Part shown: positions 1,521 through 4,830 of the stretch, in pieces
Position numbering within the stretch: position 1 is the stretch's first letter
Layout: each line of letters opens with the position of its first letter
Origin: a virus
Lineage: Duplodnaviria > Heunggongvirae > Uroviricota > Caudoviricetes
Length of the DNA: 4,830 nt
Strand: one strand, 5' to 3'
IMG/VR virus record: IMGVR_UViG_3300029107_000017
Program-made: the position numbers and the translations under genes
Notes under the pieces: generated by a model
What the model was told of the DNA's origin: nothing
Database searches by the model: none
What the model saw: the letters and a program-made list of their open reading frames with translations, nothing else

Positions 1521-1748
1521 ATGTTGAAAATTGATGCTATAGCGTTTTTTGGCAGCAAAACAAAGCTTGCCAATGTCGCAGGAGTTAGGCTGGCAAGCGT
1601 TGCAGCATGGGGGGAACTGGTTCCTGAAGGTCGCGCGATGCGCCTGCAAGAGGCATCCGGCGGGGAACTTCAGTACGACCCCAAAGTTTATGACGAATAT
1701 CGTAAGGCAAAGCGGGTGGGGCGGTTGAACAATGAAAATCACCCCTGA
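1521..1748 (+). CDS. dicC: Cro/DicC-like small HTH regulator (75 aa)
   Basis: ORF track 1521..1748 (+). TAAGGAG SD with a 6-nt spacer before the ATG. HTH-like segment GSKTKLANVAGVRLASVAAW. Divergent from the DicA-like repressor, as dicC is in Qin. Confidence 0.8.
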   Translation: MLKIDAIAFFGSKTKLANVAGVRLASVAAWGELVPEGRAMRLQEASGGELQYDPKVYDEYRKAKRVGRLNNENHP

Positions 1749-2283
1749 ACAGGTTTGTGAGGCTCTAGATGCCTGGGTATGCCGACCAGGAATGACACAG
1801 GAGCAGGCGACGATATTAATCACGGAAGCATTCTGGGCTCTGAAAGAACGCCCGAACATCGATGTTCAACGCGTCACGTTTAATGATGGCGAGGTTGATC
1901 AACGGGCGCTGGGCGTTAACCGGGTGAAGATATTCGAACGCTGGAAAGCTATCGACACCAGGGATAAGCGGGAAAAATTCACGGCGCTGATTCCGGCAAT
2001 TATGGAGGCTATCCGGATCAGCGATTTCAGGTTGTATTGTGAAATTACTGACGGAAAAAGCATTACGTACATGATCGCCGGGTTAAACAAAGAATATGGC
2101 GATGTGGTGGAGTCCGGGCTGCTTTTTGCGGATCCATCTGTTGTGGAACGTGAGACTGACGAGCTTATAGAAAAAGCTATTGCTTTCAAGCATGCGTATC
2201 GTCAGCAATATCAATATTACTTTGCAGATAAACAAATGTCTGCCAGGGGTTCGTATGAGTATCGATGCACTACGATGGGCTAA
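1732..2283 (+). CDS. YdaT-family protein (183 aa), CII-like regulator or putative toxin
   Basis: ORF track 1732..2283 (+). Overlaps the Cro-like gene's 3' end by 17 nt. MKI... N-terminus and the segment KREKFTALIPAIMEAI resemble Rac YdaT (QREKIQKLIPAILAIL) as I recall it. Confidence 0.7.
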   Translation: MKITPEQVCEALDAWVCRPGMTQEQATILITEAFWALKERPNIDVQRVTFNDGEVDQRALGVNRVKIFERWKAIDTRDKREKFTALIPAIMEAIRISDFRLYCEITDGKSITYMIAGLNKEYGDVVESGLLFADPSVVERETDELIEKAIAFKHAYRQQYQYYFADKQMSARGSYEYRCTTMG

Positions 2284-3295
2284 AAAGGTGAAAACCGGCA
2301 GTTCATCCAGTAAGTCAGTATTGACCTGGCTTGCTGATATGTGCGGTGCCGATTTGTGTGCATACCCGTCTGTATCTGCACTGGCAGAAGTAACGGAACT
2401 GAACAAAAAGACTGTGCAGGACAGCTTACGATACCTGATGGAGATTGGGTTAATTGTTGATACCGGTGAGAGAAAAGGCCGAACAAAGCAAATCGTGGTG
2501 TACCGACTTATCGGTGTAGAAGAAAGCGTTGCCGAGCCTGAATACACCCAAAAACGGGAGTCTTTAAAGGTGAGTAAAATTGGTGCTGTTAATAAAAACA
2601 GTACCGAAAATGGTTATGTTTCAGCACAAAACAGACCCAAAAACGGAACTCTTAGCTGCATGGAAAATAACCAAAGACACCCAAATTTTCCATCAAAGAC
2701 ACCCAAAAACGGATCACGGAACCCAAAGGAATCCAAAGATCTAAACCCCACACATAACGCACGCGAGAGTGCTCCGACCAGTGAGCAGGAAGTTTTGTCG
2801 TTACAGGCAGCACCCCTTGTATTCCTGGATGGCCTGAGCGAACCCATCGGAAAATTTCCGATGACCGATAGCTGGTATCCGTCACGGGATTTTCGACGAC
2901 GGGCTGCGTTGTGGGGGATGGCTTTGCCGGAGACAGAATTTACACCTGCTGAACTTGCCGCCTTCCGGGACTACTGGGCAGCGGAGGGGAAAGTGTTTAC
3001 GCAGATTCAGTGGGAGCAGAAATTCGCCCGTCACGTAAATCACGTCAGGGCGCAGGTTAAACCAGTCAGCAAGGGGGTAAACCATGCAGCAGCACCAGGT
3101 GGCACCGCATCACGGGCAGTTCAGGAAATTCGGGCAGCACGTGAGCAGTGGGAACGTGAAAACGGATTTATCAGCGACGGAAACAGCCTGGAAGCTGTGG
3201 GAACTCATGGGGGAGGTTTATTCGAACCGCTGGACCCAGAAGAACGGGGCCGCACCTTCGAAGCTCTGGATTGCACAGATTGGTGCGATGACTGA
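2255..3295 (+). CDS. Replication initiation protein: N-terminal HTH domain fused to a DnaT-like C-terminal domain (O-like)
   Basis: Track ORF 2180..3295 begins at a TTG. The in-frame ATG at 2255 has AGGGG 5 nt upstream and is the likely start (346 aa). N-terminus matches phage HTH initiator proteins. Residues around GKFPMTDSWYPSRDFRRRAALWGMALPE...YWAAEGKVFTQIQWEQKFAR closely parallel the E. coli DnaT C-terminal region as I recall it. Confidence 0.8.
   Translation: MSIDALRWAKKVKTGSSSSKSVLTWLADMCGADLCAYPSVSALAEVTELNKKTVQDSLRYLMEIGLIVDTGERKGRTKQIVVYRLIGVEESVAEPEYTQKRESLKVSKIGAVNKNSTENGYVSAQNRPKNGTLSCMENNQRHPNFPSKTPKNGSRNPKESKDLNPTHNARESAPTSEQEVLSLQAAPLVFLDGLSEPIGKFPMTDSWYPSRDFRRRAALWGMALPETEFTPAELAAFRDYWAAEGKVFTQIQWEQKFARHVNHVRAQVKPVSKGVNHAAAPGGTASRAVQEIRAAREQWERENGFISDGNSLEAVGTHGGGLFEPLDPEERGRTFEALDCTDWCDD
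2544..2730. repeat. Phased ACCCAAA(AACGG) direct repeats inside the initiator gene; candidate origin iterons
   Basis: ACCCAAA at 2546, 2635, 2679, 2701, 2721; three copies extend to (A/G)ACCCAAAAACGG(A/G). Spacings 89, 44, 22, 20 bp are near multiples of two helical turns. AT-rich stretch at about 2562-2632. The repeats also encode a Pro/Lys/Asn-rich interdomain linker. Confidence 0.4.
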
Positions 3296-3781: not shown

Positions 3782-4543
3782 ATGGAGACTGTTTTTGACG
3801 CACTGAAAGCGATGGGAAAAGCCACGTCGGTAGAGCTGGCTGCGCGACTTGATATCAGTCGTGAAGAAGTGCTGAACGAGCTGTGGGAACTGAAAAAGGC
3901 TGGCTTCGTTGATAAAAGCGTATACACCTGGCGTGTGGCTTATAACAACGTTCAGCAGGAACAGCCAGCGCCGGCAGAACTGTCGGAAGAAACCACCACG
4001 GCAACAGTCGCTAAAATTTCGGAGAGCGATTTAACTGCGACGATTGAACAACGTGGACCACAAACGGCGGATGAACTGGCTACGCTGTCCGGTACCACAT
4101 CCCGCAAAGTGGCTTCAACGCTGGCAATGGCAATCAGCAAAGGTCGTCTGATTCGTGTAAACCAGAACGGTAAATTTCGTTACTGCATACCGGGTGATAA
4201 TTTACCAGCCGAGCCGAAAGTTGAATCGGTAGCGGAAACCGATGGTAAAGCCTTTCCTCAGCCAGCAGGTGTTGCGTTACCAGTACAGGAAGTTGCAACA
4301 CAGGAATATATTAAAACAGAAACTGTGGCTGATATTGTGCAATCGTTGCCATCGTTTACTGAAACGCGAGCGGATGACCTGGTTTTACCATCGCTGCATA
4401 TGGCAAACCGCGAATTGCGTCGGGCGAAAAATCATGTCCAGAAGTGGGAGCGTGTCTGCGCCGCGCTGCGGGAACTGAACAAGCACCGGGATATTGTCCG
4501 ACAGATTGTCGATTCCTCCAGTCGTATTGTGTCGGAAAAGTGA
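3782..4543 (+). CDS. Prophage protein of unknown function with two winged-helix-like modules and a charged helical C-terminus (253 aa)
   Basis: ORF track 3782..4543 (+). GGGAGG (3770-3775) with a 6-nt spacer before the ATG. Residues about 4-51 and 84-135 share a G.T..EL....(S/T)R..V...L.....G pattern, suggesting an internal duplication. Confidence 0.8.
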
Positions 4544-4830
4544 TTGCCGGGGGCGCTTATGGCAAAAGTATTTACACAAGAAGAGCGGGAAAAATTAAGG
4601 GGCAGGTTGTTGAACTCGTGCGCCAGAGTGGGCGCGAGACGTTACGACAACTGGAAGCCAAGACAGGTGCGACAAGATATCTGATGAGCATTCTTGCCAG
4701 AGAGTTGGTTGCCAGTGGCGATGTATACAACTCTGGCTATGGGTTATTTCCCTCTGAACAGGCTCGTAAGGATTGGCAAAACGCCCGCAAAAAACTATCC
4801 AGGGCAAAGGTGAAAAAAACGGTTGTGGTT
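4540..4830 (+). CDS. Winged-helix-like protein paralogous to the upstream gene; partial (runs off the window), start ambiguous, possible frameshift
   Basis: The frame with codon starts at 4603, 4606... is open from 4378 to the window end and encodes ...[49 protein letters not shown].... The only start in that frame near the upstream stop is GTG 4540 (GTGA overlap, weak SD). A better-supported ATG at 4559 (GGGGG SD, N-terminus MAKVF like the paralog's METVF) is in another frame and stops at 4682-4684. Confidence 0.5.

What the first reader, a model, noticed from the sequence alone, without database searches (positions are those of the whole stretch)
4540..4690. Frame break at a homopolymer in the last gene: pseudogene, sequencing error or alternative GTG start
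A well-supported ATG at 4559 opens a frame that stops after 41 codons, while the protein-like body sits in the -1 frame. The switch point coincides with an A5 run (4590-4594) and a G4 run (4599-4602). Adding one base in either run gives a single [15 protein letters not shown](I/L)(K/R)GQVVELVRQ..., whose N-terminus resembles the upstream paralog. There is no canonical X-XXY-YYZ slippery heptamer, so programmed frameshifting is not indicated.
Basis: seen in the sequence. Interest (0 to 1): 0.5.

Follow-up and report, generated by a model that had tools for sequence, protein, structure and literature searches.

The report
One-base deletion breaks prophage Ren-like gene
The last gene of this E. 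coli prophage fragment has lost one A from a run of six, which breaks its reading frame; this is an ordinary, real slippage mutation in a dispensable accessory gene, not a programmed recoding signal.

Summary
ATG 4559 opens a 41-codon frame that ends at TGA 4682-4684. The rest of the protein lies in the -1 frame from about 4595. The gene is a DUF977 / "LygF" / Ren-like winged-helix protein of a Rac/Qin-like lambdoid prophage. It follows the replication genes and a DUF1627 gene.

All 132 other copies retrieved start at the 4559-equivalent codon, and most form a single ORF of 140-141 aa. All have A6 where the window has A5 (4590-4594). The G-run length never varies, so the missing base is an A. 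A sister contig differs from the window's source contig over 12.7 kb by one SNP plus this A.

The A5 allele recurs in an NCBI assembly, ENA metagenome contigs and a mosaic metagenome contig, so a random sequencing error is unlikely. The same deletion occurs in three other allele backgrounds. A second A6 run in the gene carries frameshifts about as often, which fits plain homopolymer slippage in a dispensable gene.

There is no slippery heptamer and the frameshift is not conserved. GTG 4540, which overlaps the upstream stop as GTGA, could give a 146-aa product with an altered N-terminus. That start is not conserved and has a weak Shine-Dalgarno match. The finding is of low interest.

The parts
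3782..4543 (+). Upstream DUF1627 gene (253 aa, with an N-terminal winged-helix-like region). Its stop is TGA 4541-4543.
   Evidence: ORF. Pfam PF07789 at 320 bits. Annotated as a DUF1627 domain-containing protein in orthologous loci.
4540..4542 (+). GTG in the body frame, overlapping the DUF1627 stop as GTGA. In the A5 allele it opens a 146-aa ORF ([18 protein letters not shown] + IKGQVV...). It is a possible accidental rescue start, not the native start.
   Evidence: A gene caller called this ORF in ENA contig L008/L015, and the ORF translates as stated. The Shine-Dalgarno duplex is weak, -3.5 kcal/mol. The codon is GTA in about a third of orthologous loci, and in A6 alleles the frame closes after 19 codons or earlier.
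4549..4553 (+). GGGGG Shine-Dalgarno-like element for the native start.
   Evidence: Predicted duplex with the 16S rRNA 3' end is -8.6 kcal/mol, with 5-nt spacing to ATG 4559.
4559..4684 (+). Native start codon of the DUF977 gene and the truncated 41-codon frame it now opens. Codons 1-12 are authentic and codons 13-41 are out of frame. The stop is TGA 4682-4684.
   Evidence: RefSeq orthologs start at the equivalent codon. The N-terminal peptide is conserved across 31 unique 5' segments.
4590..4594 (+). A5 run, the site of the 1-nt deletion. All intact orthologs have A6 here.
   Evidence: Alignments. The indel is listed. Among retrieved loci, 132 are A6 and 7 are A5.
4595..4830 (+). Body of the DUF977 / Ren-like gene in the -1 frame (residues 13-91 of 140). 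It is cut by the window end. On the source contig it continues to a stop at window-equivalent 4978-4980.
   Evidence: Translation. Pfam PF06163 scores 54.4 bits on the restored 91 aa. The full ORF is present in L007/L008.
4605..4652 (+). Local RNA hairpin about 10 nt downstream of the A run. It is probably incidental.
   Evidence: MFE -28.3 kcal/mol, z-score -2.84. It is not conserved: alifold gives -5.6 over 40 unique alleles, and per-allele MFEs range from -13 to -30.
4789..4794 (+). Second A6 run in the same gene (codons R-K-K), intact here. Used as a control site for homopolymer frameshifts.
   Evidence: Sequence. IMG/VR holds one A5 and two A7 alleles at this run, in three allele backgrounds.

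Best explanation
The window is the immunity and replication region of a Rac/Qin-like lambdoid prophage of E. coli. Its last gene belongs to the DUF977 family (also annotated LygF or Ren-like). The protein is 140 aa, with an N-terminal winged-helix domain and a C-terminal motif shared with lambda Ren. It sits where lambda carries ren.

In this lineage, replication slippage removed one A from an A6 run in codons 11-13. Ribosomes starting at the native ATG 4559 therefore leave the frame inside helix 1 and terminate after 41 codons.

This is a real, heritable and recent mutation. The most likely result is a null or strongly reduced allele of a dispensable accessory gene, that is an incipient pseudogene.

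**Shown:** the deletion, its site, the intact state in orthologs and its presence in several assemblies.

**Inferred:** loss of function and the slippage mechanism.
For: **The gene and its native frame**
- 132 retrieved copies start at the 4559-equivalent codon and have A6. Most are single ORFs: 104 loci give 140-141 aa from that codon. RefSeq annotates the 140-aa CDS.
- The N-terminal peptide is conserved through synonymous changes (GTA/GTT, CAA/CAG, CGG/CGA/CGT), so the ATG frame is the selected one.
- The first 12 residues add about 19 bits to the Pfam score: 103.3 bits for the intact protein against 84.1 without them.

**The mutation is real and recent**
- Sister contig L012 differs from the window's source contig L007 over 12,762 bp by one SNP plus this A.
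- All other genes in the window are intact, and no other indel separates L007 from L012, so the assembly is not error-prone.
- The A5 allele is 100% identical to the window in NCBI GCA_022135225.1 and in ENA metagenome scaffold ERZ28566405, which differ from each other by a 25-SNP patch downstream.
- It is also on three ENA contigs in all and in metagenome contig OBUY01001884.1, which has a very different upstream gene and C-terminus.

**Frameshifts and other hits recur in this gene**
- The same deletion is in three further allele backgrounds in IMG/VR.
- A second A6 run in the gene has one -1 and two +1 alleles.
- The three closest complete-genome relatives carry other lesions in this gene: a +T frameshift, an IS2 insertion and a nonsense codon.

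**Where the break falls in the protein**
- The structure model places the break inside helix 1, residues 7-24, with pLDDT 80-96 over residues 1-80.
Against: - No read-level data were available, so a systematic error shared by several assemblies cannot be formally excluded.
- Some of the IMG/VR frameshift alleles come from one batch of genomes (IMG ids 2778261xxx) and could be sequencing errors, which would weaken the recurrence argument.
- Loss of function is inferred. The body frame remains fully open to the normal stop in every A5 allele, and a GTG start is available upstream, so residual or altered function is possible.
Confidence: 0.75

Rival explanations
1. The mutation is real, but the gene stays functional. 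In the A5 allele the body frame is open back to GTG 4540, which overlaps the DUF1627 stop codon (GTGA). Termination-reinitiation coupling would then make a 146-aa protein in which residues 1-12 are replaced by 18 unrelated residues, while most of the winged helix and the Ren-like C-terminus are kept.
For: - The ORF exists and was called by a gene finder.
- It still scores 85.1 bits on Pfam DUF977, covering profile positions 12-134.
- All four independent A5 backgrounds carry the GTG and lack the early TGA, and all keep the body open to its normal stop.
- The allele is found on recombinant flanks, so it has persisted for some time.
Against: - The Shine-Dalgarno match is weak, -3.5 against -8.6 kcal/mol for the native start.
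- The lost residues are the best-conserved part of the family, about 1.6 bits per residue, and include the start of helix 1.
- About 62% of all alleles are 'rescuable' anyway, so four of four has p of about 0.15.
- Frameshifts at the second A6 run cannot be rescued yet are about as common, 3 contigs against 4. This indicates the gene is simply dispensable.
Confidence: 0.17
2. Sequencing or assembly error: the true sequence has A6 and the gene is intact.
For: - The break is a 1-nt length change in a homopolymer, the classic error type for 454, Ion Torrent and nanopore data.
- An otherwise identical A6 contig exists.
Against: - The same A5 appears in an NCBI assembly, three ENA metagenome contigs and a further metagenome contig, all with differing flanks.
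- No other homopolymer discrepancy occurs in 12.7 kb.
- All other genes in the window are intact.
- More than 130 other assemblies read A6 correctly.
Confidence: 0.05
3. Recoding. Full-length protein is restored from ATG 4559 either by a -1 ribosomal slip of tRNA-Lys on A_AAA (4591-4594), helped by the downstream hairpin, or by transcriptional slippage on the A run.
For: - A -1 slip at AAA would re-pair perfectly and give exactly the wild-type sequence ...EREK-IKGQ....
- A stable hairpin starts about 10 nt downstream, -28.3 kcal/mol, z-score -2.84.
Against: - There is no X_XXY_YYZ heptamer; the P-site codon GAA would mispair in the -1 frame.
- Orthologs are single ORFs with A6, so nothing has selected for frameshifting.
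- The hairpin is not conserved.
- From general knowledge of bacterial RNA polymerase, A5 is far below the run length needed for efficient slippage.
- At best this would be low-level leakiness.
Confidence: 0.03

Closest known systems
DUF977 family (Pfam PF06163), annotated 'LygF' or 'DUF977 family protein' in E. coli, Shigella and Salmonella prophages
   Same: The restored window protein and its full-length sister allele match the profile from position 1 (54.4 and 103.3 bits against a cut-off of 22.1). It has the same position after the replication genes and the DUF1627 gene. It is 90-95% identical to LygF of Rac-type phages. Kinch et al. 2009 (PMC2686095) predicted a winged helix for the family, and the model here agrees.
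   Different: This copy is frameshifted at codons 11-13. The function of the family has not been tested.
Lambda Ren (PHROG 142, 'Ren-like exclusion protein')
   Same: The PHROG 142 profile hit is E 1.5e-47. A C-terminal motif ECRQSxxMxRVLAxY is shared with lambda Ren, BLASTP E 8e-7. The gene also occupies an equivalent position downstream of the replication genes.
   Different: Lambda Ren is 96 aa, and only the C-terminal ~20 residues align by BLASTP. tblastn of the DUF977 protein does not reach lambda. Protection from Rex exclusion is known only for lambda Ren (my own knowledge of the older lambda literature) and is not shown for DUF977.
Frameshifted prophage pseudogenes as flagged by NCBI PGAP
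   Same: The closest complete-genome relative, HCP4S3_I4, has the orthologous gene annotated 'DUF977 family protein, frameshifted'. Others are annotated 'internal stop' or are split by IS2.
   Different: Those lesions lie at other positions. The A-run deletion seen here is a separate event.
Programmed -1 frameshift sites such as dnaX A_AAA_AAG
   Same: An A-rich tract read by tRNA-Lys, with a hairpin downstream.
   Different: There is no tandem slippery heptamer, the shift is not conserved, and orthologs need no shift.

Membership tests
DUF977 (PF06163) | Match to the Pfam profile above the gathering score | tested here: met
   The restored 91 aa from the window score 54.4 bits and the full sister allele 103.3 bits, against a cut-off of 22.1.
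DUF977 (PF06163) | Single ORF of about 140 aa starting at the MAKVF... codon | tested here: not met
   The window copy is split by a 1-nt deletion at 4590-4594. Orthologs are intact. It is therefore a disrupted member of the family.
Lambda Ren-like proteins (PHROG 142) | Profile match and shared C-terminal motif with lambda Ren | tested here: met
   PHROG 142 at E 1.5e-47. BLASTP against lambda Ren gives E 8e-7 over ECRQSxxMxRVLAxY. The motif lies beyond the window end, on source contig L007.
Lambda Ren-like proteins (PHROG 142) | Confers resistance to Rex exclusion | not testable with these tools
   This needs a phage plating assay on a Rex+ lysogen.
Programmed -1 ribosomal frameshift site | X_XXY_YYZ slippery heptamer in the zero frame | tested here: not met
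   The zero-frame codons are CGG GAA AAA TTA.
Programmed -1 ribosomal frameshift site | The two-frame arrangement is conserved in homologs | tested here: not met
   132 of 139 retrieved loci have A6, which leaves the frame unbroken at this site. The A5 alleles are rare and scattered.
Programmed -1 ribosomal frameshift site | Conserved downstream stimulatory structure | tested here: inconclusive
   The window has a hairpin with z-score -2.84. No consensus structure emerges across 40 alleles.
Transcriptional slippage site | Long homopolymeric A or T run (efficient slippage needs roughly 8-9 or more; established knowledge) | tested here: not met
   The run is A5.
Phase-variable contingency locus | Hypermutable tract with ON and OFF lengths both common in populations | tested here: not met
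No A5 was found in the GTDB species representatives.

The most novel reading that the evidence does not exclude
The one-base deletion does not kill the gene but rewires its start. It fuses the DUF977 body to a GTG that overlaps the upstream stop codon (GTGA). A separately initiated gene thereby becomes a translationally coupled one encoding an N-terminally remodelled Ren-like winged-helix protein. Recurrent A5 alleles persist because this form is tolerated or useful.
Probability: 0.12. Interest if true: 0.25.

Novelty: already known. Interest (0 to 1): 0.08.

Why it matters
It matters mainly for annotation. The locus should be labelled a frameshifted DUF977/Ren-like pseudogene whose native start is 4559. 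It should not be called as two small ORFs, as a 146-aa GTG-start protein (one gene caller did this), or as a recoding site.

There is one minor population-level point. This accessory gene picks up independent inactivating lesions in resident prophages: homopolymer frameshifts at two A6 runs, an IS2 insertion and a nonsense codon. That pattern fits a gene that is dispensable in the lysogen.

Tried and rejected
- **Native GTG 4540 start.** Rejected. The GTG is GTA in about a third of loci, the GTG frame closes after 19 codons or fewer in A6 alleles, and the ATG-frame peptide is conserved.
- **GTG 4618 (Val21) as a restart.** The resulting 120-aa product is not in the protein collection, and it would remove almost all of helix 1. 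Not pursued further.
- **Base lost from the G4 run.** Rejected, because the G-run length is constant in all alignments.
- **Run 1 as a special hot spot or rescue-biased site.** The control at the second A6 run shows a similar frequency, 3 contigs against 4. All A5 alleles carrying codon CGG is not informative, because 79% of A6 loci do too.
- **Apparent break in phage vB_EcoS-689R5.** This is an N-run assembly gap, not a frameshift.
- **BLASTP paralogy between DUF1627 and DUF977.** Nothing found.
- **Sequence search of the PDB.** No significant hit. Foldseek against the PDB gave only weak matches, E 0.04 or worse, though all were to winged-helix domains.
- **Rfam scan of the window.** No family matched.
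- **Literature.** One paper mentions DUF977. The search for 'ren gene' returned only human renin papers.
- **GTDB representatives.** No A5 allele found.

Full report
**Observation**

The window (4830 bp) was read in full and its ORFs listed.
- ATG 4559-4561 follows a GGGGG Shine-Dalgarno-like run (4549-4553). It opens [18 protein letters not shown]..., which ends at TGA 4682-4684 after 41 codons.
- The -1 frame reads ...[52 protein letters not shown]... to the window end without a stop.
- The A5 run is at 4590-4594 and the G4 run at 4599-4602.
- The zero-frame codons there are CGG GAA AAA TTA, so there is no X_XXY_YYZ heptamer.

**Context**

The window is the immunity and replication region of a Rac/Qin-like lambdoid prophage of E. 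coli.
- On the minus strand it carries ydfC, ydfB, ydfA and a cI-like HTH repressor.
- On the plus strand it carries a P22-Cro-like gene, a YdaT-family gene, a DnaT-like O-type replication gene, a lambda-P-like gene, a DUF1627 gene (3782-4543) and the gene in question.
- All genes except the last have the same lengths as in annotated relatives.

**What the gene is**

The restored product matches Pfam DUF977 (PF06163) from profile position 1. Orthologs in RefSeq are 140-aa "DUF977 family proteins" that begin exactly at the 4559-equivalent codon. In phage records the gene is called LygF or "Ren-like exclusion protein".

It hits PHROG 142 (Ren-like) at E 1.5e-47. It shares the C-terminal motif ECRQSxxMxRVLAxY with lambda Ren (BLASTP E 8e-7), and lambda ren occupies the equivalent slot after P.

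A single-sequence AlphaFold model of the intact sister allele is confident over residues 1-80 (pLDDT 80-96). It shows a winged helix: H1 7-24, H2 29-36, H3 40-53, a beta wing and H4 67-82. A low-confidence linker and C-terminal helices follow. Foldseek matches are weak (E 0.04 or worse) but are uniformly winged-helix domains. This agrees with the profile-based prediction of Kinch et al. 2009 (PMC2686095). The frame break falls inside H1.

**Which base is missing**

In alignments with six E. coli relatives and across all retrieved loci, intact copies read GAGCGNGAAAAAATTAARGRG. That is A6, with no length change in the G run. The window has A5, so one A was lost. The restored sequence ...EREKIKGQVV... 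equals the intact allele.

**Real mutation or error**

An exact look-up of the upstream DUF1627 protein found the window 100% identical in two places: NCBI GCA_022135225.1 (contig JAKNHB010000029.1, locus L007) and ENA metagenome scaffold ERZ28566405 scaffold_81 (L008). Both are A5.
- The two contigs differ from each other by a 25-SNP patch and an indel downstream, so they are separate assemblies.
- The 146-aa product that a gene caller derived from the A5 allele is on three ENA contigs.
- A further metagenome contig (OBUY01001884.1, L143) carries the same A5-bearing 5' segment. There it is joined to a very different DUF1627 allele and a different C-terminus.
- Contig L012 (GCA_004380735.1) differs from L007 over 12,762 bp by one SNP and this single A. 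The intact parent allele therefore exists, and no other homopolymer discrepancy is present.

A random sequencing error is unlikely. The deletion is recent but has circulated or recombined.

**Is the site special**

The A5 form occurs in four contigs representing three further allele backgrounds, and A7 occurs in none. No A5 occurs in the GTDB species representatives.

As a control, the second, invariant A6 run of the same gene (4789-4794) has one A5 and two A7 alleles in three backgrounds. The two runs therefore break at similar rates, and frameshifts at the second run cannot be rescued by any upstream start.

In addition, the three closest complete-genome relatives of this prophage carry other lesions in DUF977: a +T frameshift, an IS2 insertion and a nonsense codon. 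Together these results indicate ordinary slippage mutations accumulating in a dispensable accessory gene. One caveat applies: several IMG/VR frameshift alleles come from one genome batch (ids 2778261xxx) and could be sequencing errors.

**The GTG alternative**

GTG 4540-4542 overlaps the DUF1627 stop (GTGA). In the A5 allele it is in frame with the whole body and gives a 146-aa ORF. It is not the native start.
- Across 31 unique 5' segments the peptide MAKVFT(Q/P)EEREKIK is essentially invariant while the DNA varies synonymously (GTA/GTT, CAA/CAG, CGG/CGA/CGT).
- The GTG is GTA in about a third of loci. Those loci use a GTG at the 4559 position behind an AGGAGG.
- The GTG frame closes after 19 codons in A6 alleles, and earlier in CGT alleles.
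- The first 12 residues contribute about 19 of the 103 Pfam bits.
- The Shine-Dalgarno duplex is -3.5 kcal/mol for GTG 4540 against -8.6 for ATG 4559.

Coupled reinitiation at GTGA could still make some N-terminally altered protein. I give this about 0.17.

**Recoding**

A -1 slip of tRNA-Lys on A_AAA would regenerate the wild-type sequence exactly. A hairpin (4605-4652, -28.3 kcal/mol, z-score -2.84) lies about 10 nt downstream.

Against this, the P-site codon GAA cannot re-pair, and the two-frame state is not conserved. The hairpin has no consensus across alleles. A5 is also too short for efficient transcriptional slippage, which is established knowledge. At most there is low-level leakiness.

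**Verdict**

This is a genuine one-base deletion (A6 to A5) that frameshifts a Ren-like DUF977 gene in a resident prophage. It is an incipient pseudogene and an already well-known kind of event, so interest is low.
- the site is the A run;
- sequencing error is unlikely;
- the GTG is not the native start.

Noticed in passing
window 2541-2719: There are three to five copies of an ACCCAAAAACGG-type repeat inside the DnaT-like, O-type replication gene (24-nt copies at 2541, 2630 and 2696; CAAAGACACCCAAA at 2672 and 2694). They look like origin iterons embedded in the initiator gene, as in lambda O.
   Followed up: partly
L004 6057-6474; L005 6647-8400; L006 6062-6484: The three closest complete-genome relatives of this prophage each have DUF977 disrupted in a different way: a +T frameshift, an IS2 insertion and a nonsense codon. 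This suggests relaxed or negative selection on the gene in lysogens.
   Followed up: partly
window 3782-3990: The N-terminal ~70 residues of the DUF1627 protein give weak winged-helix hits (TrmB, HTH_20) and a weak hit to the same PHROG 142 'Ren-like' profile as DUF977 (E 1.5e-5). The two adjacent genes may therefore be distant paralogs, although BLASTP sees nothing.
   Followed up: partly
IMG/VR loci such as L016, L017, L045 (5' end of DUF977): A second allele class uses GTG rather than ATG at the 4559-equivalent start. It has a strong AGGAGG Shine-Dalgarno element and an unrelated upstream junction, GTAATTTTCAGGAGG.
   Followed up: no
L143 (OBUY01001884.1) against L007: The A5-bearing DUF977 5' segment (window ~4416-4930) sits in a mosaic prophage with a divergent DUF1627 allele and an EcPF15-like C-terminus. 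This is an example of recombination breakpoints within and beside this small gene.
   Followed up: partly
window 1732-2283: A YdaT_toxin-family gene (PF06254) occupies the cII position and overlaps the end of the cro-like gene by 17 nt.
   Followed up: no
L012 7197-7200 (window-equivalent ~4978): On the source contigs the next ORF starts 4 nt before the DUF977 stop. The frameshift could therefore also lower expression of the downstream gene by loss of translational coupling. This is inference only.
   Followed up: no
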